Shown here piece by piece: positions 14,998 to 37,661 of a stretch of 37,661 nt of DNA. The notes below the pieces were generated by a model, which did not search any database, had not been told where the DNA came from, and was given only the letters and a program-made list of their open reading frames with translations. Made by a program: the position numbers and the translations under genes. The stretch spans positions 1 through 37,661 of the IMG/VR virus record IMGVR_UViG_2526164599_000009; one strand, 5' to 3'. This stretch comes from a virus. Lineage: Duplodnaviria; Heunggongvirae; Uroviricota; Caudoviricetes. Numbering within the stretch: position 1 is the stretch's first letter; every line of letters begins with the position of its first letter.

Positions 14998-15152
14998 TGC
15001 TCCCCCTGAGTAATTACAGGAAGATTACCCGCGCGCGAAACCGTTCTCCTTAACCCCCTGTTCTGGCCGTTTTCTTACAACAAAAGCCCTTTGTATCAGC
15101 CTGTTACGCTTTGCCATCATGACTGAAGAACCAGTCAGAGGGGCAAAAAACT
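14998..15152. promoter_or_regulatory. Divergent late promoter region (P and O operons)
   Basis: intergenic region between divergent packaging/head operons as in P2; TGT-N11-ACG near-match to the recalled Ogr dyad, exact site not resolved. Confidence 0.3.
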
Positions 15153-19826: not shown

Positions 19827-19977
19827 TACTCCCACATGGGGAAATCTCGGTATATGGGGCGACCGCCTTCTGGATGCACTGGAAACCTGTAACGCGGATA
19901 AACGGGCCATTGAATTACTGGAACAGCGCAGGCTGCAACGACTGAACAACGAGGATAACAACCATGCTGAAAACTGA
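19657..19977 (+). CDS. Outer-membrane lipoprotein spanin (Rz1/LysC-like)
   Basis: 106-aa ORF in another frame overlapping the i-spanin 3' end; signal peptide with lipobox LTGC; Pro-rich. Confidence 0.6.
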   Translation: MNSYATILQKMNAPTLCLTLVLLTGCAGTQNAPLPAPSVRLIPQTLTIPVTPPPFPDTPTWGNLGIWGDRLLDALETCNADKRAIELLEQRRLQRLNNEDNNHAEN

Positions 19978-21984: not shown

Positions 21985-21986
21985 TC

Positions 21987-22883: not shown

Positions 22884-23484
22884 TTCGTTGTTACCACCAT
22901 CAGCCAGCAATTTCATGCGTTGTGCCGAAGCCGTCGGAACACGCATTACAGACATTCCGGTAGACCTCAACACGCTGTGGTCGCCGGACACCTGCCCGGT
23001 GCATCTGCTGCCTTATCTCGCCTGGGCGTTTTCCGTTGACCGCTGGGATCGCAACTGGCCGGAAGAGACAAAGCGACAGGTGATTCGTGATGCATGGCTG
23101 ATACACCGACACAAAGGGACCATCAGCGCACTGCGAAGAGCCGTGGAGCCTCTCGGTTACCTGATTGAAGTAAAGGAGTGGTGGCAACTCAACGAGGAGC
23201 CGGGAACATTTCGCATTGTTGTCGGAGTACTTGATCAGGGCATCACCAATGAAATGTATCAGGAACTTGAGCGCCTTATTGCGGATGCAAAACCAGTAAG
23301 TCGCCATCTGACGGGGCTGGCGATCAGCCTGAGTGTGAACGGAAAGATTTTCGTTGGTACGGGATGCTATCACGGCGATGCCCTGACGGTTTATCCCTAC
23401 ACCCCGGAGTCCATTATTGTCGAAGGGGACTATTTCCCTGCCCCGGCCATTCATTTAATTGATAATCTGAGAGTAAACGCATGA
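22876..23484 (+). CDS. I: Baseplate protein (P2 gpI-like)
   Basis: ATG 22876 overlapping J stop; about 202 aa. Confidence 0.75.
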   Translation: MSNSLLPPSASNFMRCAEAVGTRITDIPVDLNTLWSPDTCPVHLLPYLAWAFSVDRWDRNWPEETKRQVIRDAWLIHRHKGTISALRRAVEPLGYLIEVKEWWQLNEEPGTFRIVVGVLDQGITNEMYQELERLIADAKPVSRHLTGLAISLSVNGKIFVGTGCYHGDALTVYPYTPESIIVEGDYFPAPAIHLIDNLRVNA

Positions 23485-25124
23485 CAGTGAAATACTACGC
23501 CATTCTGACTAATCAGGGCGCGGCACGACTGGCTAACGCGACGATGCTCGGCAGTAAGCTGAATCTGACGCAAATGGCCGTTGGTGATGCAAATGGTGTG
23601 TTACCAACACCAGACCCTGCACAAACAAAACTGATTAACCAGAAACGCATTGCACCGCTGAATCTTCTGAGTGTTGACCCTAACAATCAGAGCCAGATTA
23701 TTGCGGAGCAAATCATCCCTGAAAACGAGGGAGGATTCTGGATCCGTGAGATTGGTCTTTATGATGATGAAGGTGTACTCATTGCGGTGGCAAACTGCCC
23801 GGAAACGTACAAACCGCAGTTGCAGGAAGGCAGTGGACGCACCCAGACTATCCGCATGATTCTGGTTGTCACGAACACCGAAGCCATCACGCTGAAAATC
23901 GACCCGTCTGTGGTTCTGGCAACCCGCAAATATGTGGATGATAAAATATCAGAGCACGAACAATCACGACGTCACCCGGACGCCTCGCTGACCGTAAAAG
24001 GTTTTACTCAGTTAAGCAGTGCAATTAACAGTGAATCAGAAACACTGGCCGCAACACCGAAAGCGGTTAAGGCTGCATATGACCTGGCTAACGGGAAATA
24101 TACCGCCCAGAACGCCACCACTACACAAAAAGGGATTGTTCAGCTCAGTAGCGCCACGAACAGCACGTCTGAAACGCTGGCAGCGACACCAAAAGCTGTT
24201 AAGGTGGTAATGGATGAAACGAACAAGAAAGCACCATTAAACAGCCCGGCACTGACCGGAACGCCAACAACACCAACAGCGCCACAGGGGACTAATAATA
24301 CCCAGATCGCAAGCACAGCTTTCGTTATGGCCGCGATTGCCGCACTTGTAGATTCGTCACCTGATGCACTGAACACGCTGAACGAACTGGCTGCGGCGCT
24401 GGGCAATGACCCGAATTTTGCGACCACCATGACTAACGCGCTTGCGGGTAAGCAACCGAAGGATGCCATCCTGACGGCGCTGGCGAAGCTTGCTACATCA
24501 GCAGATAAACTCCCATATTTTACAGGGGCAGATCGTGCCGCGTTAACCGCGTTGACAAGTGTTGGACGTGCCATTCTTGGTAAAACCAGCACTCAGGGCG
24601 TTCTTGATTACCTTGGTTTGGGGGAAGGTTCTGCGCTGCCTGTTGGTGTGCCCGTTCCGTGGCCCTCAGCAACACCACCAACGGGCTGGCTGAAATGTAA
24701 CGGCGCAGCATTTTCTTCTGAAATGTATCCCGGACTGGCAAAGGCTTACCCCACCAATAAATTACCGGATTTACGGGGTGAATTTATTCGTGGCTGGGAT
24801 GATGGACGTAGTGCGGATGCGGGGAGAACAATATTATCCGCTCAAGGTGATGCCATACGTAATATCTATGGTGAGTTCAAGACTGTAAACACTGAAAATT
24901 ATTCAATATGGGAATCAGTAGGCTCGTTTAAGGGGGCAGTGGTGCCTTTAAATTCCTCAACAAACAATAGTTATTTCTCCTTAGTCAGAAGTATGGTGAC
25001 AGAAAGGACAGACGGCGCTGTTTACCCAAAAGTGATTGGCCTTGATGCTTCAAAAATTGTTCCAACTGCAAACGAAAACCGCCCACGCAACATTGCGTTT
25101 AATTACATCGTAAGGGCAGCATGA
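23481..25124 (+). CDS. H: Tail fibre protein (P2 gpH-like), constant part fused to variable cassette 1
   Basis: 547-aa ORF; tandem repeats LSSA(I/T)NS(E/T)SETLAATPKAVK; C-terminal 170 aa from the crossover site at about 24613 form an exchangeable cassette. Confidence 0.85.
   Translation: MTVKYYAILTNQGAARLANATMLGSKLNLTQMAVGDANGVLPTPDPAQTKLINQKRIAPLNLLSVDPNNQSQIIAEQIIPENEGGFWIREIGLYDDEGVLIAVANCPETYKPQLQEGSGRTQTIRMILVVTNTEAITLKIDPSVVLATRKYVDDKISEHEQSRRHPDASLTVKGFTQLSSAINSESETLAATPKAVKAAYDLANGKYTAQNATTTQKGIVQLSSATNSTSETLAATPKAVKVVMDETNKKAPLNSPALTGTPTTPTAPQGTNNTQIASTAFVMAAIAALVDSSPDALNTLNELAAALGNDPNFATTMTNALAGKQPKDAILTALAKLATSADKLPYFTGADRAALTALTSVGRAILGKTSTQGVLDYLGLGEGSALPVGVPVPWPSATPPTGWLKCNGAAFSSEMYPGLAKAYPTNKLPDLRGEFIRGWDDGRSADAGRTILSAQGDAIRNIYGEFKTVNTENYSIWESVGSFKGAVVPLNSSTNNSYFSLVRSMVTERTDGAVYPKVIGLDASKIVPTANENRPRNIAFNYIVRAA
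24613..24635 (+). other. Invertase crossover site 1 (hix/gix-like), inside H
   Basis: TTGGTTTGGGGGAAGG shared with five other sites; left half-site differs here (GATTACC instead of GAAAACG). Confidence 0.55.
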
Positions 25125-25146
25125 AAACGTTGGTTTGGGGGAAGGT
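25124..25146 (+). other. Invertase crossover site 2
   Basis: GAAAACGTTGGTTTGGGGGAAGG; resembles the Hin hixL core as recalled. Confidence 0.6.
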
Positions 25147-25638
25147 TCTGCGCTGCCTGTTGGTGTGCCCGTTCCATGGCCCTCAGCCACACCACCAACG
25201 GGCTGGCTGAAATGCAATGGTGCAGCATTTTCTTCTGAAATGTACCCCAAACTGGCAAAAGCCTACCCCGCAAATAAATTACCGGATTTACGGGGAGAAT
25301 TTATTCGCGGCTGGGATGATGGGCGCGGGGTGGATGCTGGCCGCGCTTTGCTTAATTGGCAGCCACACACAATTTTGGATCATGCACACTATATGGAATT
25401 ATGGACCGGGAACGGACTTGCCGTGGAAAGTGCACGGGAAGGATTAAACCCTGGAATACTGGCTACATACGGGGACGGGGGAATAGTTAAAACAGACGAA
25501 CCCGGTTTAAGGGTGCCTTCCTCACTACGAGCCATTAGCTCTCGTAATGTAAAACGGTTTGGTGAAATTAGTGGAAATGTAGGTACAGAAACTCGCCCTC
25601 GCAACGTTGCATTCAATTACATCGTAAGAGCCGCATGA
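25135..25638 (+). CDS. Promoterless tail-fibre C-terminal cassette 2
   Basis: 167 aa; shares the first roughly 60 aa (GEGSALPVGVPVPWPSATPPTGWLKCNGAAF...) and last roughly 15 aa (RPRN[IV]AFNYIVRAA) with the H C-terminus. Confidence 0.6.
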   Translation: MGEGSALPVGVPVPWPSATPPTGWLKCNGAAFSSEMYPKLAKAYPANKLPDLRGEFIRGWDDGRGVDAGRALLNWQPHTILDHAHYMELWTGNGLAVESAREGLNPGILATYGDGGIVKTDEPGLRVPSSLRAISSRNVKRFGEISGNVGTETRPRNVAFNYIVRAA

Positions 25639-25655
25639 AAACGTTGGTTTGGGGG
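25637..25655 (+). other. Invertase crossover site 3
   Basis: GAAAACGTTGGTTTGGGGG. Confidence 0.6.
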
Positions 25656-26125
25656 AAGGCTCTGCACTGCCCGTTGGTGTGCCTGTTCCATGGCCCTCAG
25701 CCACACCACCAACGGGCTGGCTGAAATGTAACGGTGCAGCATTTTCTTCTGAAATGTATCCCGGACTGGCAAAGGCTTACCCCACAAATAAATTACCGGA
25801 TTTACGCGGAGAATTTATCCGTGGCTGGGATGATGGGCGAGGAATTGATGCGGCACGCGCTTTATTGAGCATTCAAAACGGGATGTTGGAAAAACACCGC
25901 CATATTGTTGTAGCTAACGATGGATATGACACAAAAGATGAATGGGAGTTGGCTACGATTTTCAAAAAAACATATACACAAGGCAGGGGACTTGATGCCA
26001 CAAATACAGGAGGGAGTTTGATTCCATCACCAACGCTTCATTCACGAGGAAGTATTGGTAACACAGGTGGTAGTGAAACCCGCCCCCGCAATATTGCATT
26101 TAACTATATCGTGAGGGCGGCTTAG
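25649..26125 (+). CDS. Promoterless tail-fibre C-terminal cassette 3
   Basis: 158 aa; conserved N- and C-terminal ends, unique middle. Confidence 0.6.
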   Translation: MGEGSALPVGVPVPWPSATPPTGWLKCNGAAFSSEMYPGLAKAYPTNKLPDLRGEFIRGWDDGRGIDAARALLSIQNGMLEKHRHIVVANDGYDTKDEWELATIFKKTYTQGRGLDATNTGGSLIPSPTLHSRGSIGNTGGSETRPRNIAFNYIVRAA

Positions 26126-26131
26126 TTATAT

Positions 26132-26743
26132 TCAACTGGCTGATGCCAGTGGTATTTCCGGCAAGTTGATATCTGGTGCCATGTTTATATCCATTGCGTT
26201 CAGCGCGTCTATATAATCCAGCACGGCATTAAGCCGGGTGGTTTCTGCCTGCGTCAACTTCCGCCCGGCCCGCAACTTCAACTGAATCAGACTTATGGAA
26301 TCCATTGCCGCATCAGCCAGTGACTGGCGCTTGGTTTCTGCCGCTTCTACTGCGGCACGATGTTGTACCTCAGTATCTGTCACCCATTTTTCACCATCCC
26401 ATTTATCGTATGGTGTTAACGGGGCGATAGTGGTTGTATTTTTCGGGTAGTCACCCAGCGCCGTGATTTCTTCGGTGTTTCCCGTGTCAGTGCTATAGAC
26501 GGTTTCACCACGATGGTCTGGCGCATACTCCCATGAATTTAAATCCTCCGAACGGCGAATAGCATAGCCAGATTTATGTGCGCCTGGGGCATCTAAACAG
26601 GAATTAGCCGGAATACCAACACCCACAGCAAGATATTCAGTTGATTCGGAAATATATTCCCGTGTCTCACCATCATAGTTATAAACGACGATGTTTCCTG
26701 CCTGTACGGCAATAAGGTCATCATTTAATATCGCGTTATTCAT
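26132..26743 (-). CDS. Tail fibre assembly chaperone (Tfa/gpG-like)
   Basis: 203-aa ORF starting 1 nt inside the stop of minus-strand cassette 4 (TAATG); typical position for a fibre chaperone. Confidence 0.7.
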   Translation of the reverse strand: MNNAILNDDLIAVQAGNIVVYNYDGETREYISESTEYLAVGVGIPANSCLDAPGAHKSGYAIRRSEDLNSWEYAPDHRGETVYSTDTGNTEEITALGDYPKNTTTIAPLTPYDKWDGEKWVTDTEVQHRAAVEAAETKRQSLADAAMDSISLIQLKLRAGRKLTQAETTRLNAVLDYIDALNAMDINMAPDINLPEIPLASAS

Positions 26744-27205
26744 TATGCGGTTCTCACAATATAATTGAAGGCAATATTGCGTGGGCGGGCTTCATTCCCC
26801 CCTGAGGATTCCGTTCTGTATTGACTGGTAAATCTACCGTTAATTGCACCTTGCCGGACGGCGTTATCTGTCGACAACAGACTATCCCCTCCTTTGTCAT
26901 TTGGCACCAGTACCGTGTTATCCCACGCGTCCCATGACCGAATATTATGATAATGACTTCCTGTTAACCACCCCTGCATGCTTAAGATGCCCCTTCCGGC
27001 ATCCACCCCGCGCCCATCATCCCAGCCACGGATAAATTCACCGCGTAAGTCTGGTAATTTATTGGTGGGGTAAGCCATTGCCAGTCTGGGATACATTTCA
27101 GAAGAAAATGCTGCGCCGTTACATTTCAGCCAGCCCGTTGGTGGTGTTGCTGAGGGCCACGGAACAGGCACACCAACGGGCAGTGCAGAACCTTCTCCTA
27201 AACCA
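26743..27205 (-). CDS. Promoterless tail-fibre C-terminal cassette 4 (inverted)
   Basis: reads GLGEGSALPVGVPVPW... in frame upstream of the track GTG start at 27171; unique middle, conserved ends; directly followed by the Tfa gene. Confidence 0.6.
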
Positions 27206-27214
27206 ACGTTTTCA
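27190..27214 (-). other. Invertase crossover site 4 (inverted)
   Basis: reverse complement reads GAAAACGTTGGTTTAGGAGAAGG. Confidence 0.55.
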
Positions 27215-27715
27215 TGCGGCTCTTACGATGTAATTGAATGCAACGTTGCGAGGGCGAGTTTCTGTACCTACATTTCCACTAATTTCACCAAACCGTTTTA
27301 CATTACGAGAGCTAATGGCTCGTAGTGAGGAAGGCACCCTTAAACCGGGTTCGTCTGTTTTAACTATTCCCCCGTCCCCGTATGTAGCCAGTATTCCAGG
27401 GTTTAATCCTTCCCGTGCACTTTCCACGGCAAGTCCGTTCCCGGTCCATAATTCCATATAGTGTGCATGATCCAAAATTGTGTGTGGCTGCCAATTAAGC
27501 AAAGCGCGGCCAGCATCCACCCCGCGCCCATCATCCCAGCCGCGAATAAATTCTCCCCGTAAATCCGGTAATTTATTTGCGGGGTAGGCTTTTGCCAGTC
27601 CGGGATACATTTCAGAAGAAAATGCTGCACCATTGCATTTCAGCCAGCCCGTTGGTGGTGTGGCTGAGGGCCATGGAACGGGCACACCAACAGGCAGCGC
27701 AGAACCTTCCCCCAA
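27212..27715 (-). CDS. Promoterless tail-fibre C-terminal cassette 5 (inverted near-identical copy of cassette 2)
   Basis: 167 aa, differs from cassette 2 by one residue (G for K). Confidence 0.6.
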   Translation of the reverse strand: MGEGSALPVGVPVPWPSATPPTGWLKCNGAAFSSEMYPGLAKAYPANKLPDLRGEFIRGWDDGRGVDAGRALLNWQPHTILDHAHYMELWTGNGLAVESAREGLNPGILATYGDGGIVKTDEPGLRVPSSLRAISSRNVKRFGEISGNVGTETRPRNVAFNYIVRAA

Positions 27716-27727
27716 ACCAACGTTTTC
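27705..27727 (-). other. Invertase crossover site 5 (inverted)
   Basis: reverse complement reads GAAAACGTTGGTTTGGGGGAAGG. Confidence 0.6.
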
Positions 27728-28289
27728 ATGCTGCCCTTACGATGTAATTAAACGCAATGTTGCGTGGGCGGTTTTCGTTTGCAGTTGGAACAATTTTTGA
27801 AGCATCAAGGCCAATCACTTTTGGGTAAACAGCGCCGTCTGTCCTTTCTGTCACCATACTTCTGACTAAGGAGAAATAACTATTGTTTGTTGAGGAATTT
27901 AAAGGCACCACTGCCCCCTTAAACGAGCCTACTGATTCCCATATTGAATAATTTTCAGTGTTTACAGTCTTGAACTCACCATAGATATTACGTATGGCAT
28001 CACCTTGAGCGGATAATATTGTTCTCCCCGCATCCGCACTACGTCCATCATCCCAGCCACGAATAAATTCACCCCGTAAATCCGGTAATTTATTGGTGGG
28101 GTAAGCCTTTGCCAGTCCGGGATACATTTCAGAAGAAAATGCTGCGCCGTTACATTTCAGCCAGCCCGTTGGTGGTGTTGCTGAGGGCCACGGAACGGGC
28201 ACACCAACAGGCAGCGCAGAACCTTCCCCCAAACCAACGTTTTCGTTTTTATCCCTACCTATACCAACTATGTATTTTTCACGAAACAA
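27726..28289 (-). CDS. Promoterless tail-fibre C-terminal cassette 6 (inverted copy of the H C-terminus)
   Basis: from GEGSALPV onward identical in protein and DNA to H residues about 378-547; the N-terminal 17 codons of the track ORF are outside the cassette. Confidence 0.6.
   Translation of the reverse strand: MFREKYIVGIGRDKNENVGLGEGSALPVGVPVPWPSATPPTGWLKCNGAAFSSEMYPGLAKAYPTNKLPDLRGEFIRGWDDGRSADAGRTILSAQGDAIRNIYGEFKTVNTENYSIWESVGSFKGAVVPLNSSTNNSYFSLVRSMVTERTDGAVYPKVIGLDASKIVPTANENRPRNIAFNYIVRAA
28222..28245 (-). other. Invertase crossover site 6 (inverted)
   Basis: reverse complement reads GAAAACGTTGGTTTGGGGGAAGG; about 60 bp from the invertase start. Confidence 0.6.
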
Positions 28290-28303
28290 AGAGGATGTTT
28301 TTT

Positions 28304-28903
28304 ATGCAAATTGGCTATATTCGTGTGTCAACAAATGACCAGAACACGGATTTACAACGCAATGCACTGAACTGCGCAGGATGTGAACTGATTTTTGAAG
28401 ATAAAATCAGCGGAACGAAATCAGCCAGACCGGGATTGAAAAAACTGCTCAGAACGCTATCAGAAGGAGATACGCTGGTTGTCTGGAAGCTGGACAGACT
28501 GGGCAGAAGTATGAAACACCTGATCACGCTTATTGAGGAATTGCGGGAAAAAGGTGTTAATTTCCGTAGTCTGACGGACAGCATTGACACATCAACACCC
28601 ATGGGGCGTTTCTTTTTTCACGTCATGGGGGCTTTAGCCGAAATGGAACGTGAATTAATTGTAGAGCGTACACTGGCCGGGCTGGCAGCAGCACGCGCAC
28701 AAGGACGCATTGGCGGACGTCGCCCGAAGTTGACAAAAGAACAACACGAGCAAATAGCGAGGCTGATTAAAAACGGTCATGACAGGAAACAACTGGCGAT
28801 CATTTACGACATCGGCATATCGACGATTTATCGTTATCACCCTGTAGGCGATATACAGGCTGAAGAAACAACCAGGCAGACTCAGGAAAATGAAAACCGC
28901 TAA
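28304..28903 (+). CDS. Serine DNA invertase (Hin/Gin/Cin/Pin family)
   Basis: ATG 28304; N-terminus MQIGYIRVSTNDQNTDLQRNAL with catalytic Ser in the RVST context; C-terminal HTH (GISTIYRY); 199 aa. Confidence 0.9.
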   Translation: MQIGYIRVSTNDQNTDLQRNALNCAGCELIFEDKISGTKSARPGLKKLLRTLSEGDTLVVWKLDRLGRSMKHLITLIEELREKGVNFRSLTDSIDTSTPMGRFFFHVMGALAEMERELIVERTLAGLAAARAQGRIGGRRPKLTKEQHEQIARLIKNGHDRKQLAIIYDIGISTIYRYHPVGDIQAEETTRQTQENENR

Positions 28904-28921
28904 TCTGACCATTAGCGGTTT
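28893..28921. terminator. Bidirectional hairpin between convergent invertase and gpU genes
   Basis: perfect stem ACCGCTAAT / ATTAGCGGT with loop CTGACC, flanked by A-run upstream and TTTTG downstream; overlaps the invertase stop. Confidence 0.5.
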
Positions 28922-28929
28922 TGCGTTAA

Positions 28930-29424
28930 TCAAAACAGCCCTTTAACGGAGCTGGCCGCGCTGTTAAGGGATGATGTGACCTTATCTTTGAAGCCGGACA
29001 GCATATCACTGAACGATGAGGATTGCAGGCGCTCCCGCAAATCCTCATCACAGCGTTCAAGAGTCAGTGAAAATTCTATCTTTTTCGCCTTACCGTAGCG
29101 ATCAAACTCGGAGCGGGTCGTATTCGTTCCGGTCAGGACATACATGCCGTAAATCTGCCCGACACCATCAATCAGAGGCCAGGGGCGTCCTGTATATGCC
29201 TGCGAGGTCAGCAACGAAAGCGACACTTCGCCACCTGTAATTTCAGGATAAAGCACACCAGAAAGAACGATGCGATCATCGCCTGCCCCGATATACTGCC
29301 AGCTTGCTGAACGGTTAACGCGTTCATTTTTCACATGCCGCCAGCTTTTGTTTTGCTGTAACTGCTGATGCGGCAACGTGCGCAGCTCAAAAACAAACAT
29401 GCCATAGATCATCATCATGGCCAT
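28930..29424 (-). CDS. U: Tail protein (P2 gpU-like)
   Basis: 164-aa ORF with RBS GAGGAG; WPLIDG...IYGMYV pattern as in P2 U as recalled. Confidence 0.75.
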   Translation of the reverse strand: MAMMMIYGMFVFELRTLPHQQLQQNKSWRHVKNERVNRSASWQYIGAGDDRIVLSGVLYPEITGGEVSLSLLTSQAYTGRPWPLIDGVGQIYGMYVLTGTNTTRSEFDRYGKAKKIEFSLTLERCDEDLRERLQSSSFSDMLSGFKDKVTSSLNSAASSVKGLF

Positions 29425-29430
29425 GACTCC

Positions 29431-32238
29431 TCAATCTTTATCGTAAAAACTGCCACGCCCGGCACGGGCGCGCCGTTCCATCTCTGCCCTGACCATTTCA
29501 CCGACCAGTTTCGCCAGTTCGCGGGGATTCTGTGTAACAACGTTATGCAGATGAACATGAATTTCACCACCAAATCCGGAGGCAACAGGCTCCCGGTTAC
29601 GGGAAGTTACAGGAACTGATGCCACTGGAGATCGTATGGCCTCCGCCACCGGGCGGGAGCTGGCCGCAACAACAGGGACCAGCGCCGGAGGCAGCGGAGC
29701 CGGGACCACGGGTGTGATATTAATTGCGGGGGCAGGCTTACTGGCCTGCGCAATCTTCCGCTCCTGCCACTCCCCACGAACAGCAAGTGCTCGGGGCAGG
29801 TTTTTAAAGACAATATCGCCGGGGCCAATGCGTTTTTTCGTCTCCTCAACCAGCTTACCTGTGTTATCAGCAATTTTGCTGAGTCTGCGTAGCGTCCCGG
29901 TATTGCTGTCTGTGAGCGGTTTGTTGTCTTTGGGTTTATCACCTCCGGTGCCATTGCCATTTTCCACAGGCTTCGGCGGATTGATTTTCGCCAGGTCCCC
30001 TTGAAGTAAGGCAACCTTGTCCTGAAGAATGGCCGCACGCTGTGCGTCTTCGATTTTCTTTCTCGCCCTTTCCGCTTCATCCGGAAGAACACCGAGTTTT
30101 TCAAGTATCCACGCCAGCGTATCCAGCAACATTTTTGCAGGCGTCAGAACAAGCTGTAACGCGCCACCAAGAACGTTACCGAATATCTCGCCAGCACTGG
30201 TACATTTATCCAGCGTTTCCTTGCTGGACTCCATCGGTGACAGCAGCGATTTAAACCAGTTAAACACCTGGCTGATCCCGCTTCCGATTGCGTCAAAAAC
30301 AGGGCCAAACCGTTCAAAGGTTTCACGCAACGGGTTCAGCCTTTCCATAATCCCGCTGAACACCCCGGCAAAAAATGCCCTGATGGGATCCCAGTATTTC
30401 CAGATAAGAACGGCAGCGCCGGCAAGCGCAGCCACGATAAGACTAACCGGACTGAACAGCGCCCCGATAGCTCCTCCCAGCAAAGAAACAGAACCCGTCA
30501 CCATTCCCCACAGCGCAGGCAACACCCTGATGACATTCATTGACCGGGTAAGAATGTCGAAACCAAGACGCAAGGTGGCCAGCTTCCCGTAAAGCACCCC
30601 AATAACCAGCGACAACGAGCCAATCGTTGCAGTCATTGCCAGCAACGCACCGCTTGCTATCAGTAGCTGGCGCGTCAGTACCGGATGGGCCTGCGCCAGC
30701 GAGGTGATTTTTTCAAGCACCCGCGTGAGCCACTGCGTGACAGAACGCAGCGGACCGTCAACCAGATCACTGATGCGAATACGAAGACCTTCCCATGCGC
30801 TGTCGAGATTTTTCAGGTCTCCATCAAGATTATCGGCCATTACTTTTGCAACGCGATCGGCCTCTCCCCTTGCCCCCTGCAATTCTCTGGTCAGTTTTTG
30901 CAGTTCTCCTGAACCAGCCGCCGCAACAAGCGTCTGCAAACCAACGAACGCCTCTTCTCCGGCGATGTCCTTGAAGAAGGAGACCTGGTCCACCTGTCCG
31001 TATTTTTGTGTCGCCTTATAGAGATCAAGCAGCACATCCTCCATCGGGCGCATTTTGCCTCTGGCGTCAGCAACTGACACCCCCTGCTCTTTCAGTGCAT
31101 CAGCCGCAGCTTTTGGCGGTGATGCAAGGCGGGACAGACTTGCGCGCATGGCCGTACCAGCATCGCTTCCGCGAAGACCATTATTGGCAAGCATCCCGGC
31201 CATGGCCGCCGCTTCTTCAAGACTGATACCAAGTTTTGCGGCAACCGGACCGGTATACTTCATGGTTTCGCCCAGCGCGCGTAAATCAGTATTGGTCCGG
31301 GTGAATGCTGCTGTCAGCGTATCGCCAACCCGGTCCATTTGATCGGCTGTCAGGTTGAACTGTGTGAGGATATTGGAGCCTATATCAGCCGTCTCGCCGA
31401 GTTCGACGCCACCTGCCAGCGCCATATTAAGAACACCGGGCAATGCGGCCTGAATGGCCTGCGGAGTAAAACCAGCCATTGCCAGAAAGCTCTGCCCACT
31501 GGCGGCATCACTCGCAGTAAACTGTGTTTCAGAACCAAGTTTTAACGCCTGCTCACGCAGCGCCTTAAACTGCGGGCTGTTTTTGTCGATTCGCGTCAGT
31601 GCCTGAACGCGGGACATCTCTTTGCCGAACCCGATCGCAGGCTGCAAAAAACGCCCGGCAGCATAGCCGCCAGCCGCTGCAGCACCAATTGCCAGCGCAC
31701 CACCTGTTTTCAGTTTTCCCGCGGTTTCCTGCGCGCGCGAATACCGCTCACGCGCCCGCGTTACACGCGCAAGCGCCTGCCGTTCGCGTTCAAGCTGGTT
31801 GTTGTACTGTTCGGTGCGTCTGATGGCCTGCTGGATGGTGTTATCGCTGCCTGTCAGGGAAATGCCGTGGCGTTTCAGCTCTCCGCCAAGTTCCCGCATT
31901 TTCTGAATTTCCCGTGTGCGCGATTCATTCAGGCGTTCAAGCCGGCTGCTTAACTGCTGCATCAGCTTTTGTTGTTTTTCGCTGAGCACTGTACCCGTGC
32001 GTTGTAACTGATTAAGGGCGTTAAGCTGGCGTCGTGCTTTCACGATACCCGCATCCGCTTTACTGACAGCGTCGCGGGCGCGCTCAAATGAACGCGCCTG
32101 ACGCTCGAGATTTTTGATCGCCCCCTGCGTTCGCTGGATGGAGTCACCAAACTGCCCCATCAGGCGGCGGGCGTTTTCGGCAGGCCGGGTCAGCCTGTCA
32201 ACGGCGCTGAAAGCGACCCGGATATCAAGAGTCTTCAT
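29431..32238 (-). CDS. T: Tail tape measure protein (P2 gpT-like)
   Basis: roughly 935-aa ORF from ATG 32238 (RBS GGGAG) or 947 aa from GTG 32274; coiled-coil N-terminus, Gly/Ala-rich hydrophobic middle. Confidence 0.85.
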   Translation of the reverse strand: MKTLDIRVAFSAVDRLTRPAENARRLMGQFGDSIQRTQGAIKNLERQARSFERARDAVSKADAGIVKARRQLNALNQLQRTGTVLSEKQQKLMQQLSSRLERLNESRTREIQKMRELGGELKRHGISLTGSDNTIQQAIRRTEQYNNQLERERQALARVTRARERYSRAQETAGKLKTGGALAIGAAAAGGYAAGRFLQPAIGFGKEMSRVQALTRIDKNSPQFKALREQALKLGSETQFTASDAASGQSFLAMAGFTPQAIQAALPGVLNMALAGGVELGETADIGSNILTQFNLTADQMDRVGDTLTAAFTRTNTDLRALGETMKYTGPVAAKLGISLEEAAAMAGMLANNGLRGSDAGTAMRASLSRLASPPKAAADALKEQGVSVADARGKMRPMEDVLLDLYKATQKYGQVDQVSFFKDIAGEEAFVGLQTLVAAAGSGELQKLTRELQGARGEADRVAKVMADNLDGDLKNLDSAWEGLRIRISDLVDGPLRSVTQWLTRVLEKITSLAQAHPVLTRQLLIASGALLAMTATIGSLSLVIGVLYGKLATLRLGFDILTRSMNVIRVLPALWGMVTGSVSLLGGAIGALFSPVSLIVAALAGAAVLIWKYWDPIRAFFAGVFSGIMERLNPLRETFERFGPVFDAIGSGISQVFNWFKSLLSPMESSKETLDKCTSAGEIFGNVLGGALQLVLTPAKMLLDTLAWILEKLGVLPDEAERARKKIEDAQRAAILQDKVALLQGDLAKINPPKPVENGNGTGGDKPKDNKPLTDSNTGTLRRLSKIADNTGKLVEETKKRIGPGDIVFKNLPRALAVRGEWQERKIAQASKPAPAINITPVVPAPLPPALVPVVAASSRPVAEAIRSPVASVPVTSRNREPVASGFGGEIHVHLHNVVTQNPRELAKLVGEMVRAEMERRARAGRGSFYDKD

Positions 32239-32461
32239 TGTCTGCACTCCCGCTGCGAAGTGCCGCCCGCTCACGCCAGCTAACCACTTCGCCGGGCGTC
32301 ATCATGAAGATTTCGGCGGGCGACCAGTTAAAAATAACGGCAATATCTGCCACAAAGTCTTCTATGTGCTCAAAGCACACAATCGTGATCAGGCTTCCGT
32401 CGCCTGTTCGTTCTTCCCGCCAGAGTCCGCACCGCTCAAAAAATTTACGGCAACCGCACAT
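32225..32461 (-). CDS. E' extension, expressed as E+E' by -1 frameshift
   Basis: -1 frame ORF continuing from AAT TTT TTG (forward 32438-32446) to 32225; overlaps the T start; analogous to P2 E/E' and lambda G/GT. Confidence 0.6.
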   Translation of the reverse strand: MCGCRKFFERCGLWREERTGDGSLITIVCFEHIEDFVADIAVIFNWSPAEIFMMTPGEVVSWRERAALRSGSADNEDS

Positions 32462-32754
32462 AACTGAATAAAGTCACGGGATGCCATTTTTTTGATCGTC
32501 ACTTCATCCAGTCGCGGTGATGTCACGCGTGACAGCAGCGTAAACATGGATTCCGCTTTCAGATTCAGCACATCAGACAGCGACAAATCTCGCAGAGATC
32601 CAGCCTGCTCAATAGCTCCGGTGATCTCCACATACGTGATTTTTTCGCCGCCTCGCTCAATTGGTTGGGTAAGTTTTACGCCACGCTCACTGGTTTCTTT
32701 CACAGTGTCAGCAACGACCGTGTTTTCGGTATCGATGTTTTTCGTCTCTTTCAT
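32389..32754 (-). CDS. E: Tail assembly chaperone (P2 gpE-like)
   Basis: 121-aa ORF with RBS AAGGAG; contains slippery TTTTTTG near its 3' end. Confidence 0.7.
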   Translation of the reverse strand: MKETKNIDTENTVVADTVKETSERGVKLTQPIERGGEKITYVEITGAIEQAGSLRDLSLSDVLNLKAESMFTLLSRVTSPRLDEVTIKKMASRDFIQLCAVAVNFLSGADSGGKNEQATEA

Positions 32755-32808
32755 CAGGAAACTCCTTTCAGTCAGAGGCGACGCACTGCGCCGCCTGCAT
32801 ATTACTTA

Positions 32809-33321
32809 TCAGCCAAGCCCAAGCGCGGAACGGATGCGATCGGGCACAATGTCCTTGCCGTCCTTCCGGTAAATGAAGTTCAGCAGGTCAATCTCCCACA
32901 ACGGGCGATCGTTAACACTCAGCTTGTAGTAGGTGTTTTTAATGGCGTAAGTGTGTGATGTGGCTTCGCCCTGTTTGGCTTCCCCCATATCAATTTCCGT
33001 CACACGTCCGCGCATCTCGATTTCATACAGATCGCTTTCTGCATCGGTGTAGTATTCACCCGCAAAACGCAGCAGCGTGCCGTCAATCGTGCCGCCATAT
33101 TTAAGGAACAGCGCACGAACAGCTCCCCCCATAACAAAACTCGCATCAAGCGCGGAGTCGTCCAGACCGAGATCAATACTTACCGCCCCCATCATGCCAC
33201 CACCACGATAGCTGTCGGTTTTGCGCGTCAGTTTAGGCAGGGTGACGGACGTCACCTTACCCACTTCGTTTTCACCATCCACAAACAGCGTAAAAAAGCG
33301 AAGATGTTTTGGTACAGCCAT
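32809..33321 (-). CDS. FII: Tail tube protein (P2 gpFII-like)
   Basis: 170-aa ORF immediately downstream of the sheath gene. Confidence 0.85.
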   Translation of the reverse strand: MAVPKHLRFFTLFVDGENEVGKVTSVTLPKLTRKTDSYRGGGMMGAVSIDLGLDDSALDASFVMGGAVRALFLKYGGTIDGTLLRFAGEYYTDAESDLYEIEMRGRVTEIDMGEAKQGEATSHTYAIKNTYYKLSVNDRPLWEIDLLNFIYRKDGKDIVPDRIRSALGLG

Positions 33322-34505
33322 CAGACACCTCCCAGCACCGCAAATGCGGGACCAAAGAATTCATCAGTAAACGACTGGTAAAGCTCCATGTCTTCCAGCG
33401 GGGGAACAGGCGTATATTTGTAGCGAATACGCACACGCCCCTGACGTAAATTCGTGGTGCCGTTATCCACCACGTCATACCAGCACGACGCCCCAATCAG
33501 TTTCCCGGCAGTAACCAGTGAATCCAGTTTTGCCCTGATGGCACTGATAACATCTTTCACGTTCGCAGGCGTCAGTGGACTGTCGATGGTTTCAAACTGC
33601 GCTTCCGCAATTGAATCAGCCAGCACCTGTGCGGTTCGGGTATACACCTCAAAGATGTAGGCGTTCGTTTCCGGTGTGCGGTTGCCCCAGAAGCGGAACC
33701 CGTTGCGACGAATAATGGTCGTGATTTCTTTGTTGTTGAGGCTGTTGGCATCGCTGTCTTCGGCCTGCAACGACCAGAACACATGCCTGGACATCCCCAG
33801 CACATTTTTAACCGGAACGTTGGACAGTGATTTGTGCCATCCCTGCTCATGGTCAATGTACGCACGAAGGCCGCACGCATAGGCAGGCGCGGGGAACGTT
33901 TCGTTTTTGCCACTTTTCGGGTTGTAGGCGATGAAGTCCGGCCATAAGAGCATCACCTCACGTTCGTTGAATTTCTGGCGGTAGGTAATCACCTCAGCCA
34001 TCGTGTTACAGCCGTGACATGAGGCATACACAAACGCGCGCAGTTTACCCGCAATCACGCACAGGGATTTTGTCACCGCCTCCGTGTCCAGCTCCGGCGC
34101 GGCCAGAATACGCGGACGGTATCCGATGCTTTCATCCTGCTCTGCAACAAGCAGCGCATACATCCCCGTATAGCTGCCGTCAGATTCAGAACCACCGATA
34201 ACCAGTTGATCCTGCGTCTTTCCGTCTTCTTCTTTGTGTTCAGCCACGCGAACGACGATCACCTTTGTGCTCACCTGGTCTGCGATGGCCTTAAGCGCAC
34301 GATAAAGCGTCCCCGTTGTCCCGCATTTTCCCAGCACGTCATTGACGCGGGTCAGCAGTGTGGGCTTGTTCAGCGGGAACAGCTTCGCGTCCGCATCATC
34401 CGCCGTTGCCACGATACCGATAACGCTGGAATCAACATCGTTAATCGCTGTTACCAGGTCGGTATTTTCCGTAACACGGGCACCATGAAAACGAGTTTCA
34501 CTCAT
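33321..34505 (-). CDS. FI: Tail sheath protein (P2 gpFI-like)
   Basis: 394-aa ORF with RBS AAGGGG; size and context as P2 FI. Confidence 0.9.
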   Translation of the reverse strand: MSETRFHGARVTENTDLVTAINDVDSSVIGIVATADDADAKLFPLNKPTLLTRVNDVLGKCGTTGTLYRALKAIADQVSTKVIVVRVAEHKEEDGKTQDQLVIGGSESDGSYTGMYALLVAEQDESIGYRPRILAAPELDTEAVTKSLCVIAGKLRAFVYASCHGCNTMAEVITYRQKFNEREVMLLWPDFIAYNPKSGKNETFPAPAYACGLRAYIDHEQGWHKSLSNVPVKNVLGMSRHVFWSLQAEDSDANSLNNKEITTIIRRNGFRFWGNRTPETNAYIFEVYTRTAQVLADSIAEAQFETIDSPLTPANVKDVISAIRAKLDSLVTAGKLIGASCWYDVVDNGTTNLRQGRVRIRYKYTPVPPLEDMELYQSFTDEFFGPAFAVLGGV

Positions 34506-34662
34506 AGCTTTAGCCCCTTGTATCCGTTAAATGATTCGGCAACAATCATCACCCACCACGCGCGTAATCTCACCCCTGTGCCGTTCTCCCGATCCGGCGA
34601 CAACAAAAAGCAGTAACCCCCTCCGCACGCACATGCGACCATGCCGCACAGGGAGGGAACAG
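34506..34662. promoter_or_regulatory. Divergent promoter region between FI operon and D
   Basis: 157-bp intergenic region between divergent late genes; promoter elements not resolved. Confidence 0.3.
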
Positions 34663-35772
34663 ATGACCGATACCACCATGCAATTGCTCAGTCAGGGCAC
34701 AGACCCCGTGAAAATGCCGGATTTTGATATTCTCGCGGAGGGTAAAACGCTGTCAGGCGTGGCAGAGCGCCTGATGAGCCTGTCACTGACCGACAACCGG
34801 GGATTTGACGCGGACCAGCTCACCATCACGCTGGATGATGCGGATGGTCAGTTGCAGCTACCGCCACGGGGCGCGCGCCTGACGGTTCTCATTGGCTGGA
34901 AAGGAGAACCGCTGACAGAAAAAGGCACTTACATTGTTGATGAAATCGCTCACGAAGGACCGCCGGACAGGCTGACTGTTTCAGCCAGAAGCGCAGATTT
35001 TCGGGATGAATTTAACGTTAAACGTGAGGTGTCCTGGCATGATGTGACCGTTGAGCGTGTGGTATCCGCCATCGCTCATCGGTATGGTCTGAAACCGCAA
35101 ATCAGCGAAATGCTGATGGATATCGAAATCGACCACGCCGACCAGACCGAAGAAAGCGACATGTCCTTCCTTACGCGCATGGCGGAAATGCTGGGCGCAA
35201 TCACCACGGTAAAAAGCGGTAATCTGTTATTCATTATGCCAGGCGGTGGCGTGAACGCACAGGGCCAGCCGTTGCCATCGTTCGCCATCACGCGCAGCAG
35301 TGGCGATCGCCATCAGTTCCGCATTGCTGACCGCGAAGCGTATACGGGGGTACGCGCTTACTGGCTTGATCTTAATTACGGGAAAAAGAAAAAAGTCAGC
35401 GTGAAACACCGCAAACCGCCAAAACCCAAAAAGGAGAAAAGCAGCAGCCGCGAAGGTGATTATATGGAAGGCGCGGAAGGCAATGTGTTTGTGTTACGCA
35501 AGACTTATCAGAACGAGCAGGCAGCAAGACGCGCAGCGGCGGCAAAGTGGCAGCAGCTACAACGCGGAGCCGCATCATTCTCCATCACGCTGGCATGTGG
35601 TCGTGCAGAACTCTACCCCGAAATGCATGGCACGGTAACAGGATTTAAAAGCGAGATTGATAATCAGGACTGGATTATTGCAAAAGCCGAGCACACCATC
35701 GATAACAGCGGCTTTACCACGCAGCTTGAGCTTGAGGCAAAAATCCCGGAATGGATAGCAGAAACAGAGTGA
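34663..35772 (+). CDS. D: Tail protein D (P2 gpD-like)
   Basis: ATG 34663 after RBS GGGAGGG; 369 aa; the track ORF from 34531 has no RBS and is probably over-extended. Confidence 0.85.
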   Translation: MTDTTMQLLSQGTDPVKMPDFDILAEGKTLSGVAERLMSLSLTDNRGFDADQLTITLDDADGQLQLPPRGARLTVLIGWKGEPLTEKGTYIVDEIAHEGPPDRLTVSARSADFRDEFNVKREVSWHDVTVERVVSAIAHRYGLKPQISEMLMDIEIDHADQTEESDMSFLTRMAEMLGAITTVKSGNLLFIMPGGGVNAQGQPLPSFAITRSSGDRHQFRIADREAYTGVRAYWLDLNYGKKKKVSVKHRKPPKPKKEKSSSREGDYMEGAEGNVFVLRKTYQNEQAARRAAAAKWQQLQRGAASFSITLACGRAELYPEMHGTVTGFKSEIDNQDWIIAKAEHTIDNSGFTTQLELEAKIPEWIAETE

Positions 35773-35814
35773 GCAACTTAGAATAGCAGCAGCACCACGT
35801 TAAGGGAGGTCGCT

Positions 35815-36075
35815 ATGTTCCGTTGTCCGCTTTGTGGCGCATCTGCCCGTATCCGCACCAGTCGTCCGGAAAATGATTCAAACACCGTGCGGCAAAAGTA
35901 TTACCAGTGTAACAACCTGGAATGCGGCGTATGCTTCTCAACACTGGAAGCTTTCCATAAATTCACATCAAAACACACCTCCGGCGTTCACTCTTCAGAA
36001 GGTATCCCGTGGCATGAGCTGCCAGCTTCACACAGGGGAAACAATCAGATGAGTTTGCCTTTACCTCAGAATTAA
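35815..36075 (+). CDS. ogr: Ogr/Delta-family zinc-finger late transcription activator
   Basis: MFRCPLCGASARIRTSR...YYQCNNLECGVCFSTLE has the C-x2-C...C-x4-C arrangement of P2 Ogr; RBS GGGAGG; last prophage gene. Confidence 0.8.
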   Translation: MFRCPLCGASARIRTSRPENDSNTVRQKYYQCNNLECGVCFSTLEAFHKFTSKHTSGVHSSEGIPWHELPASHRGNNQMSLPLPQN

Positions 36076-36266
36076 CAGGCAGAATTGCCGGAGTAACAAA
36101 AAAGCGATAGATTACGCGCGGGTGCCTTTCGGCTGATGGTCGGAGGGAATACCCGAAGGCCAGATGTGGAAAGGCCCCGGAAAACATTTCTGTTTAACCG
36201 AGGCCCTAACATATCTACCTTAAGCAAGTGATAGGTTAGCGCCTCTCCAACAAAGGAGCAAGCGCT

Positions 36267-36447: not shown

Positions 36448-36774
36448 ATGACTAAAAATACTCGTTTTTCCCCCGAAGTCCGTCAGAGGGCGATTCGTAT
36501 GGTTCTGGAAAGTCAGGGCGAATATGACTCACAGTGGGCGGCAATTTGTTCCATTGCCCCAAAGATTGACTGTACACCGGAGACTCTGCGTGTCTGGGTA
36601 CGCCAGCATGAGCGGGATACCGGAGGCGGTGATGGCGGGCTCACCACCGCTGAACGTCAGCGTCTGAAAGAGCTGGAACGTGAAAATCGTGAACTGCGCC
36701 GCAGTAACGATATCCTTCGCCAGGCTTCCGCTTATTTTGCGAAGGCGGAGTTCGACCGCCTCTGGAAAAAGTGA
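36448..36774 (+). CDS. IS3-family transposase OrfA (HTH, leucine zipper)
   Basis: [22 protein letters not shown]...[29 protein letters not shown] matches IS629-group OrfA as recalled. Confidence 0.85.
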
Positions 36775-37661
36775 TGCCACTGCTGGATAAGCTGCGTAAG
36801 CTGTACGGGGTCGGACCGGTATGCAGTGAACTACATATTGCCCCGTCAACGTATTACCACTGTCAGCAACAGCGACATCATCCTGATAAACGCAGTGCCC
36901 GTGCGCAGCGCGATGACTGGCTGAAGAAAGAGATACTGCGCGTATACGATGGGAATCATCAGGTATACGGTGTGCGTAAAGTCTGGCGTCAGTTGTTACG
37001 GGAAGGAATCAGGGTAGCCAGATGTACAGTGGCGCGCCTCATGGCGGTTATGGGACTTGCCGGTGTTCTCCGGGGTAAAAAGGTCCGCACTACCGTCAGC
37101 CGGAAAGCCGTTGCCGCAGGCGACCGCGTAAACCGTCAGTTTGTGGCAGAACGTCCTGACCAGTTGTGGGTGGCTGATTTTACTTACGTCAGCACATGGC
37201 AGGGGGTCGTCTATGTGGCGTTCATCATTGATGTGTTTGCCGGATACATCGTGGGGTGGCGGGTCTCATCGTCTATGGAAACGACATTCGTGCTGGATGC
37301 TCTGGAGCAGGCGTTATGGGCCCGTCGACCGTCCGGCACAGTCCATCACAGTGATAAAGGTTCTCAGTATGTATCGCTGGCCTACACACAGCGGCTTAAG
37401 GAAGCCGGATTACTGGCATCAACAGGAAGTACTGGTGACTCGTATGACAACGCGATGGCGGAGAGCATCAATGGCCTTTACAAAGCGGAGGTAATACACC
37501 GTAAGAGCTGGAAAAACCGGACAGAAGTGGAGCTGGCCACACTCACGTGGGTGGACTGGTATAACAATCGACGATTGCTGGGAAGGCTGGGCCATACTCC
37601 TCCGGCAGAAGCAGAAAAAGCTTATTATGCTTCCATCGGAAACGATGATCTGGCAGCCTGA
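36771..37661 (+). CDS. IS3-family transposase OrfB (DDE catalytic domain)
   Basis: -1 frame relative to orf[18 protein letters not shown] and [13 protein letters not shown] motifs; stop at the last 3 bases of the window. Confidence 0.85.

What the first reader, a model, noticed from the sequence alone, without database searches (positions are those of the whole stretch)
28904..34662. FI-FII-E-T-U tail block is inverted relative to canonical P2 synteny
In P2 the order H-G-(Z/fun)-FI-FII-E-T-U-D is co-directional. Here FI-FII-E/E'-T-U lie on the minus strand, convergent with the invertase and divergent from D, so D and ogr are separated from their usual operon. The inversion breakpoints coincide with the invertase/U hairpin at about 28.9 kb and the 157-bp FI/D intergenic region. 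This may be a genuine rearrangement, possibly invertase-mediated, or a different lineage architecture.
Basis: partly seen in the sequence, partly recalled or inferred. Interest (0 to 1): 0.5.

Follow-up and report, generated by a model that had tools for sequence, protein, structure and literature searches.

The report
Fixed tail-gene inversion of P88-like phages
The tail sheath-to-U gene block really does run backwards compared with phage P2, but this is the normal, anciently fixed layout of a whole branch of P2-like phages (P88, SEN4 and relatives), not a fresh or invertase-driven rearrangement.

Summary
FI, FII, E/E', T and U lie on the minus strand (28930-34505). They converge on a serine invertase at a bidirectional terminator hairpin (28893-28922) and diverge from D-ogr across a 157-bp spacer. 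P2 gene order was recalled correctly.

It is not a recent or invertase-mediated event:
- The same layout occurs in the functional phages P88, PhiSM, SEN4, 3LV2017 and KSP20.
- The real FI/D junction is contiguous in 1358 of 1381 matching complete E. coli records. A synthetic "flipped" junction is found in 0 of 1572.
- 141 of 164 surveyed loci, from more than 20 enterobacterial genera, are inverted, and most of them have no invertase.
- No crossover-like site or inverted repeat flanks the block.
- Inverted loci are monophyletic in D and FI trees, and the outgroups are co-directional. This fits one ancient inversion.

Inferred mechanism: the FI promoter and its Ogr-type activator site, T(G/C)T-N12-ACA at 34585-34602, moved with the block. 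The site now sits midway between FI and D, with symmetric -10-like hexamers 44-49 bp on each side. That resembles P2's shared P/O promoter node, so D probably has its own late promoter. Ordinary lineage architecture; low interest.

The parts
28304..28903 (+). Serine (Din-family-like) DNA invertase. It belongs to the neighbouring tail-fibre cassette region, not to the inverted block.
   Evidence: Pfam Resolvase plus HTH_7. gix-like sites occur only at 24.6-28.25 kb.
28893..28922 (.). Hairpin with an A-run on one side and a T-run on the other. Probable bidirectional intrinsic terminator for the convergent invertase and U transcripts. Marks the left edge of the inverted block.
   Evidence: Sequence. 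Terminator scan finds a 12-bp stem. Non-homologous hairpins follow U in many related loci.
28930..29424 (-). gpU homologue (tail protein)
   Evidence: PF06995, E 2.6e-38. 46% identity to P2 U.
29431..32274 (-). gpT homologue (tape measure). This is the longest ORF; the annotated relative starts at the equivalent of 32238.
   Evidence: PF10145. 33% identity to P2 T. Relative's annotation.
32225..32754 (-). gpE (32389-32754) and the E' frameshift extension (32225-32380), the tail assembly chaperones
   Evidence: phrog_103 and phrog_1756. 32% identity to P2 E. 'GpE family' annotation in strain AR_0013.
32809..33321 (-). gpFII homologue (tail tube)
   Evidence: PF04985, E 2e-46. 42% identity to P2 FII.
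33321..34505 (-). gpFI homologue (tail sheath)
   Evidence: Sheath Pfam domains. 46% identity to P2 FI.
34506..34662 (.). 157-bp FI/D divergent intergenic region. Right edge of the inverted block and proposed bidirectional late-promoter node.
   Evidence: Sequence. Spacers are short in all distinct relatives: typically 125-198 bp, with one 398-bp outlier where the FI start was not resolved.
34585..34602 (.). TCT-N12-ACA dyad (TCTCCCGATCCGGCGACA). Candidate Ogr-type activator binding site, centred 89 nt from the FI ATG and 69 nt from the D ATG.
   Evidence: Conserved position with variable spacer in about 100 of 108 distinct intergenic regions; exact TGT-N12-ACA in 33 of 108 versus 1.9% of control windows. 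Same geometry upstream of FI in co-directional relatives. TST-N12-ACAAC occurs only here and in the P/O spacer.
34545..34550 (-). Predicted -10 hexamer GATGAT of the leftward FI promoter. Predicted transcription start near 34538.
   Evidence: Conserved xAxxAT at -44 to -49 from the site centre in 37 non-redundant relatives. Inference only; no transcript data.
34637..34642 (+). Predicted -10 hexamer GACCAT of a rightward D promoter. Predicted transcription start near 34649.
   Evidence: Conserved A at +45 and T at +49 from the site centre, mirroring the left side. Inference only.
34663..35772 (+). gpD homologue (baseplate hub, 'late control D'), full length
   Evidence: PF05954. 50% identity to P2 D. 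Full-length alignment with D from both layout classes.
35815..36075 (+). Ogr/Delta-type zinc-finger late activator
   Evidence: PF04606. 42% identity to P2 Ogr.
15062..15081 (.). Matching site TCT-N12-ACAAC in the P/O divergent spacer, the other late-promoter node of this prophage
   Evidence: Identical in P88.

Best explanation
The window carries a P88-like (Xuanwuvirus-level) P2-family prophage. In this lineage the segment [FI promoter and its activator site - FI - FII - E/E' - T - U] was inverted once, long ago, and the inversion became fixed.

The left breakpoint lies between the tail-fibre (and, where present, invertase) module and what had been the upstream end of the F operon. The right breakpoint lies at the old U/D boundary. 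The block is now transcribed leftward from the FI/D spacer and ends at a bidirectional terminator facing the invertase.

The inversion cut D off from the F operon. D (with ogr downstream) is most likely transcribed rightward from a new promoter that uses the same dyad-symmetric Ogr-type site, T(G/C)T-N12-ACA, which came along with the FI promoter. That would make the 157-bp spacer a bidirectional late-promoter node with the geometry of P2's shared P/O node.

Shown: the layout, its fixation, its phylogenetic distribution, the lack of recombination sites, and the conserved site with its symmetric hexamers.
Inferred: that the site binds the Ogr homologue, and that both hexamers are active promoters.
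For: Layout:
- Searches confirm gene identities and strands in the window.
- The same layout is seen in phage P88, SEN4, 3LV2017 and KSP20.
- P88, PhiSM and SEN4 are active temperate phages (PMC5285337, PMC6456863, PMC5261728).

Fixation in E. coli:
- 1105 E. coli records (1103 genomes) are colinear over at least 80% of 28000-36200.
- The real FI/D junction is contiguous in 1358 of 1381 matching records.
- A synthetic invertase-to-FI flipped junction is found in 0 of 1572 records.

Breadth:
- 141 of 164 loci are inverted.
- This includes every locus whose D is at least 61% identical to the window's D.
- They come from more than 20 enterobacterial genera.

Single origin and polarity:
- The inverted class is monophyletic in neighbour-joining trees of D (121 tips) and FI (112 tips).
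- P2, Fels-2, Pseudomonas phage Dobby, Mannheimia phage PHL101 and Vibrio phage MAR are all co-directional, with U abutting D.

No invertase role:
- gix-like cores occur only at 25125, 25639, 27200, 27714 and 28231, plus a degenerate one near 24608.
- No inverted repeat pairs 28.9 kb with 34.5 kb.
- Most inverted loci lack an invertase.

Promoter model:
- A T(G/C)T-N12-ACA site sits 76-89 nt from the FI ATG and mostly 64-80 nt from the D ATG in almost all of 108 distinct spacers.
- The half-sites are conserved while the 12-nt spacer varies.
- Co-directional relatives have the site 79-86 nt upstream of FI.
- Symmetric xAxxAT hexamers lie at +/-44-49 from the site centre.
- The P2 record annotates one activator site at 3057-3087, between the P transcription start (3016) and the O start (3127).
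- The TGT-N12-ACA consensus and Ogr dependence of P2 late promoters are stated in PMC3931495.
- The only other TST-N12-ACAAC in the window is in the P/O spacer.
Against: - There are no transcript or binding data. In the E. coli group the left half-site is TCT, not TGT, and a one-mismatch match alone is not significant in a single 157-bp sequence.
- The -10-like hexamers are weak (GATGAT, GACCAT), and the rightward one is only moderately conserved (information about 0.9-1.2 bits).
- The trees are neighbour-joining without bootstrap, on loci chosen by similarity to D, so sampling is limited to Enterobacterales plus four outgroups.
- One locus, L095, shows a different rearrangement with a breakpoint inside T, so rearrangements in this region do occur occasionally.
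Confidence: 0.88

Rival explanations
1. The FI-U block is a recent or ongoing inversion catalysed by the adjacent serine invertase, acting as a switchable segment.
For: An invertase gene abuts the block, and one boundary carries a palindromic hairpin. One IMG/VR contig, L095, has an aberrant inversion that includes the invertase and part of T.
Against: - No gix-like site (at most 1 mismatch in the 12-nt core, or at most 3 in the 26-mer) lies outside 24.6-28.25 kb.
- No inverted repeat pairs the two boundaries.
- 0 of 1572 E. coli records hold the flipped junction, while 1358 hold the observed one.
- The inverted layout is present in many genera and in phages without any invertase, such as SEN4 and 3LV2017.
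- Fels-2 has an invertase in the same slot with a co-directional block.
Confidence: 0.02
2. The orientation is an assembly or scaffolding artefact of this window.
For: The neighbouring fibre region contains 1.27-kb inverted repeats that could confuse short-read assemblers.
Against: Both junctions are reproduced in more than 1100 complete genomes and in independently sequenced phage genomes. The repeats do not flank the FI-U block.
Confidence: 0.01
3. The block was not inverted in place. An ancestor replaced its FI-U module with a cassette acquired from another phage, and the cassette was inserted in the opposite orientation.
For: Phage genomes are mosaic, and gene order alone cannot distinguish in-place inversion from replacement.
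Against: - Divergence from P2 is similar inside the block (FI 46%, FII 42%, U 46%) and outside it (D 50%, V 46%, W 44%, Q 47%).
- D and FI trees both recover the same monophyletic inverted class.
- The FI promoter and site geometry is the same as in co-directional relatives.
Confidence: 0.07
4. The divergent FI/D layout is ancestral, and the co-directional P2 layout is the derived one.
For: Polarity rests on a handful of outgroups.
Against: All outgroups examined are co-directional with U abutting or overlapping D: Pseudomonas Citexvirus, Mannheimia Baylorvirus, Vibrio Vhmlvirus, and Fels-2. The inverted class is nested as one clade when the tree is rooted on the Vibrio phage.
Confidence: 0.02

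Closest known systems
Escherichia phage P88 and genus Xuanwuvirus (Peduoviridae); also Citrobacter phage PhiSM
   Same: Colinear over the whole prophage. P88 covers 77.5% of window 1-36447 at 95.2% identity. Gene order is identical: invertase (+), then U-T-E'-E-FII-FI (-), then D (+). The 157-bp FI/D spacer and the P/O spacer site are the same.
   Different: The immunity and integrase region (1-3 kb) and the tail-fibre cassettes (24.5-28.3 kb) differ. The window also carries an IS3-family element downstream of ogr.
Phage P2 F operon (FI-FII-E/E'-T-U-D) with its Ogr-dependent PF promoter
   Same: All six gene products are homologous at 32-50% identity. The activator-type site sits about 83-89 nt upstream of FI in both. 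ogr follows D in both.
   Different: In P2 the six genes form one co-directional operon and U overlaps D. Here FI-U is reversed and D is transcriptionally separate. There is also no separate V promoter region here, because S and V overlap.
P2 PP/PO divergent late promoters sharing one activator site
   Same: One dyad site lies roughly 55 bp from each of two divergent starts. P2 is annotated with the site at 3057-3087 and starts at 3016 and 3127. In the window, the site centre is at 34593/4 and -10-like hexamers lie at +/-44-49.
   Different: For the FI/D node the transcription starts and the Ogr dependence are predictions only.
Din-family invertible segments (Mu Gin/G, P1 Cin/C, p15B Min)
   Same: A homologous serine invertase lies next door, and the fibre cassettes to its left carry gix-like crossover sites.
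   Different: The FI-U block has no crossover sites, is never seen in the other orientation, and is inverted in phages that lack an invertase.

Membership tests
P2-like phage (Peduoviridae) tail/late module | Homologues of FI, FII, E/E', T, U, D and an Ogr-type zinc-finger activator | tested here: met
   Pfam and PHROG hits. tblastn with P2 proteins gives 32-50% identity.
P2-like phage (Peduoviridae) tail/late module | FI-FII-E-T-U-D organised as one co-directional operon, as in P2 | tested here: not met
   FI-U are on the minus strand and D on the plus strand. This is a feature of P2 itself, not of the family: three ICTV Peduoviridae genera share the divergent layout.
P2-like phage (Peduoviridae) tail/late module | Late promoters with a TGT-N12-ACA activator site about 55 bp upstream of the start | tested here: inconclusive
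   TCT-N12-ACA lies at the expected distance from FI and is conserved across relatives; many relatives have an exact TGT-N12-ACA. Transcription starts and binding were not measured.
Genus Xuanwuvirus (P88-like) | At least about 70% nucleotide similarity over the genome to the type phage, with colinear genomes. The ICTV genus criterion is recalled from general knowledge. | tested here: met
   77.5% coverage multiplied by 95.2% identity gives about 74% versus P88, all colinear.
Din-type invertible DNA segment | Inverted pair of about 26-bp crossover sites flanking the segment | tested here: not met
   No site lies at 28.9 kb or at 34.5-34.7 kb.
Din-type invertible DNA segment | Both orientations found among closely related genomes or within populations | tested here: not met
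   0 of 1572 records hold the flipped junction versus 1358 with the observed junction. Within-culture heterogeneity is not testable with these tools.
Bidirectional Ogr-dependent promoter node (P2 PP/PO type) | Single dyad site equidistant from two divergent -10 elements | tested here: met
   Site centre at 34593/4. Conserved xAxxAT at -44 to -49 and +44 to +49 in 37 non-redundant relatives.
Bidirectional Ogr-dependent promoter node (P2 PP/PO type) | Transcription from both sides depends on the Ogr-type activator | not testable with these tools
   Needs reporter assays or 5'-end mapping.

The most novel reading that the evidence does not exclude
The ancient inversion turned the unidirectional FI promoter into a second bidirectional Ogr-dependent node. 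If so, P88-like phages would run the late genes considered here from just two symmetric divergent spacers (P/O and FI/D), and the baseplate hub gene D would have its own promoter, uncoupled from sheath and tube. No such node is described in the papers I could search.
Probability: 0.55. Interest if true: 0.3.

Novelty: already known. Interest (0 to 1): 0.15.

Why it matters
Mostly as a caution. P2 is not the template for all P2-like prophages. The divergent FI/D layout is normal for a large and very common clade, present in about a quarter of complete E. coli genomes, so it should not be flagged as a rearrangement or as invertase activity.

A secondary point is that the clade offers a natural example of how an operon-breaking inversion can be tolerated. 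A dyad-symmetric activator site carried with the block could immediately serve the orphaned gene on its other side. This is cheap to test experimentally.

The survey also suggests that automated annotation often mis-calls the 5' end of D in this clade.

Tried and rejected
- **Inverted repeats, 23.0-36.2 kb.** The only long repeats are the fibre-cassette arms. Nothing links 28.9 kb with 34.5 kb.
- **gix/hix-type patterns.** Hits fall only in the fibre region.
- **Exact TGT-N12-ACA in the window.** Three hits, at 4117, 11925 and 28271. This is fewer than the chance expectation and none is in a late spacer. The relevant sites have TCT in the left half, so the site was established by comparison with relatives rather than by consensus matching.
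- **Sigma-70 promoter scan.** No hit inside the FI/D spacer; the nearest is a minus-strand match at 34756-34729, just inside D. Activator-dependent promoters lack a -35 element.
- **U C-terminus and D N-terminus as breakpoint scars.** These termini vary in all lineages and both proteins are full length, so they give no usable signal.
- **Terminator conservation downstream of U.** Hairpins are frequent but not homologous and not universal, so this is only weak support.
- **Literature.** Papers on P88, PhiSM, SEN4 and P2-like virus diversity do not mention the inversion. I found no paper that describes it, but the library is incomplete.
- **Locus L095, the single 'mixed' layout.** It is a different inversion, with a breakpoint inside T. 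It is irrelevant to the boundaries of this finding.
Full report
**What is in the window**

The window is a P2-family prophage. The ORF map, a tblastn of every P2 protein against the window and Pfam/PHROG scans give this order:
- int (1-1002, minus) and the early/replication genes
- Q and P (12200-14997, minus)
- a continuous rightward run from O to the tail-fibre gene H (15153-25124)
- a fibre-cassette region (24.6-28.3 kb)
- a serine invertase (28304-28903, plus)
- U (28930-29424), T (29431-32274), E' and E (32225-32754), FII (32809-33321) and FI (33321-34505), all on the minus strand
- D (34663-35772) and an Ogr-type zinc-finger gene (35815-36075) on the plus strand
- an IS3-family element running to the end of the window

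Only the five-gene FI-U block is reversed here.

The FI/D spacer is exactly 157 bp. A 12-bp-stem hairpin with an A-run on one side and a T-run on the other lies between the invertase and U stops (28893-28922).

**Is it a fresh rearrangement, an artefact, or a lineage trait?**

- Megablast of 28000-36200 against 5426 complete E. coli genomes finds one colinear match covering at least 80% of the query in 1105 records, from 1103 genomes.
- A 957-bp probe spanning the FI/D junction is contiguous in 1358 of 1381 matching records.
- A synthetic probe joining the invertase 3' end to the FI 5' end, which is the junction that would exist if the block were flipped to P2 orientation, is not found as a single place in any of 1572 matching records.
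- The same order and strands are annotated in phage P88 (genus Xuanwuvirus), and the block is colinear in phages 500465-2, P884B11 and Citrobacter phage Shae_phiSM.
- P88 and PhiSM are active temperate phages (PMC5285337; PMC6456863).
- Overall the window is 77.5% covered by P88 at 95.2% identity, all colinear. That is genus-level relatedness.

An assembly artefact and a strain-specific event are therefore excluded.

**How far does the layout extend?**

I used a D-protein alignment to fetch 160 loci from species-representative bacterial genomes and IMG/VR. I then located FI, FII, T, U, D, ogr, H, I, J and invertase homologues in each by tblastn. After adding the annotated phage records, 141 of 164 classifiable loci have FI-U opposite to D and 23 are co-directional.

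Every locus whose D is at least 61% identical to the window's D is inverted. These come from Escherichia, Salmonella, Klebsiella, Citrobacter, Enterobacter, Kosakonia, Serratia, Erwinia, Pantoea, Pectobacterium, Brenneria, Edwardsiella, Hafnia, Yersinia, Providencia, Morganella, Xenorhabdus, Photorhabdus and others. Every locus closer to P2's D is co-directional.

Named phages with the inverted layout include Salmonella phage SEN4 (Senquatrovirus), Klebsiella phage 3LV2017 (Reginaelenavirus) and Serratia phage KSP20.

The outgroups all have FI to U to D co-directional, with U abutting D: Fels-2, Pseudomonas phage Dobby, Mannheimia phage PHL101 and Vibrio phage vB_VpaM_MAR.

In neighbour-joining trees of D (143 unique sequences) and FI (134), rooted on the Vibrio phage, the inverted class is monophyletic with no co-directional intruder. 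The simplest reading is one ancient inversion in an ancestor of this enterobacterial clade. The caveats are that the trees are neighbour-joining without support values and that the sample was chosen by similarity to D.

**Was the invertase responsible?**

The evidence says no.
- gix-like cores (AAACGTTGGTTT) occur only at 25125 and 25639 (plus) and at 27200, 27714 and 28231 (minus), with a degenerate one near 24608. All are inside the fibre-cassette region.
- No inverted repeat pairs the two block boundaries.
- Most inverted loci in other genera, including SEN4 and 3LV2017, have no invertase gene.
- Fels-2 has an invertase in the same slot but a co-directional FI-D operon.

The invertase is an accessory of the fibre module that happens to sit next to the left breakpoint.

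**How the inverted layout most likely works**

In P2 the four late promoters depend on Ogr and share a TGT-N12-ACA element (PMC3931495). The P2 record annotates a single activator site (3057-3087) between the divergent P and O transcription starts (3016 and 3127), about 55 bp from each.

In the window, the FI/D spacer contains TCT-N12-ACA at 34585-34602. A single one-mismatch match would mean little on its own. The comparative evidence is what carries the argument:
- Among 108 distinct FI/D spacers from relatives, almost all carry T(G/C)T-N12-ACA at the same place, centred 76-89 nt from the FI ATG and mostly 64-80 nt from the D ATG.
- The half-sites are conserved while the 12-nt spacer varies freely.
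- 33 of 108 carry an exact TGT-N12-ACA, against 1.9% of random windows of equal length.
- Co-directional relatives, including P2 and Fels-2, have the site 79-86 nt upstream of FI. The FI promoter and its site therefore travelled with the block.
- Anchoring 37 non-redundant spacers on the site centre reveals mirror-image conserved positions that fit an xAxxAT -10 hexamer at -44 to -49 and at +44 to +49.
- In the window these hexamers are GATGAT (34550-34545, minus strand) and GACCAT (34637-34642, plus strand). They predict starts near 34538 (minus) and 34649 (plus), about 55 bp either side of the site.
- The extended pattern TST-N12-ACAAC occurs only twice in the whole window, both strands counted: here and in the P/O spacer at 15062-15081.

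I therefore propose that the FI/D spacer is a second bidirectional Ogr-dependent node like P2's P/O node. The dyad symmetry of the site that came with the FI promoter would have let the orphaned D gene acquire late expression.

The leftward transcript ends at the hairpin at 28893-28922, which also faces the invertase. Non-homologous hairpins follow U in many relatives.

The conserved sequence features are shown. Binding by the Ogr homologue and activity of both promoters are inferred.

**Alternatives considered**
- Invertase-mediated switching, about 2%.
- Assembly artefact, about 1%.
- Replacement of the module by a foreign cassette inserted backwards, about 7%. This is disfavoured because identity to P2 is similar inside and outside the block and the FI and D trees agree.
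- Reversed polarity, with the divergent layout ancestral, about 2%. This is contradicted by all the outgroups.

**Novelty and verdict**

The layout is the norm for at least three ICTV genera and is visible in many annotated public records. None of the papers I could search comments on it.

The finding is a correct observation of an ordinary, already-documented lineage architecture. The invertase idea is wrong. The only mildly new element is the inferred bidirectional FI/D late-promoter node, which is a variation on the known P2 P/O arrangement and is easily testable. Interest is low.

Noticed in passing
window 24606-28249: Multi-cassette invertible tail-fibre region. Six alternative H C-terminal cassettes, each starting GLGEGSALPVGVPVPWP and ending RPRN(I/V)AFNYIVRAA, lie three on each strand. 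Each is preceded by a gix-like site. Two pairs are near-identical, which gives 1266-nt inverted arms at 98% identity. A single tail-fibre-assembly-like gene (26132-26743) sits in the centre on the minus strand. It resembles a Min/shufflon-type multiple-inversion system more than a simple Mu G segment.
   Followed up: partly
L095 (IMGVR_UViG_2654587728_000014) 493-3212 versus 6284-11110: The one relative with a 'mixed' layout. A segment carrying the invertase, U and the 3' half of T is inverted relative to the 5' half of T, FI and D. The breakpoints correspond to about window 30850-30946 (inside T) and about 28137. It is either a defective prophage or a mis-assembly.
   Followed up: partly
window 36448-37661: IS3-family (IS629-like) element, with OrfA at 36448-36774 and OrfB from 36771 to the window end. 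It is inserted just beyond ogr and the hok-like region at the right end of the prophage.
   Followed up: no
window 34506-34972 and relatives: Automated annotation often mis-handles the 5' end of D in this clade. In strain AR_0013, which is 100% identical across the junction, D is called as a 266-aa protein plus a pseudo 'hypothetical protein'. Many E. coli records, and P88 itself, list a small 'hypothetical protein' in or over the FI/D spacer. The window's D ORF is intact at 369 aa.
   Followed up: partly
E. coli O157:H7 genomes (for example NZ_CP066753), equivalent to window about 34930: In several O157:H7 genomes the match to the FI/D probe stops at query position 825, inside D. This suggests a shared truncation or insertion in D in that lineage.
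   Followed up: no
window 20415-21637: The S-like and V genes overlap (20415-21059 and 21056-21637). There is no orf30-type gap and no room for a separate V promoter as in P2. The head, lysis, baseplate and fibre genes appear to form one long rightward operon from the P/O node.
   Followed up: no
window 28271-28288: An exact TGT-N12-ACA (TGTATTTTTCACGAAACA) lies 16 nt upstream of the invertase start codon. It may be chance, since exact sites in the window are fewer than expected, or it may link invertase expression to the late activator.
   Followed up: no
window 9173-10448: By colinearity with P88 annotation, ParM-like segregation and partition genes lie in the early region of this integrating P2-like prophage.
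   Followed up: no
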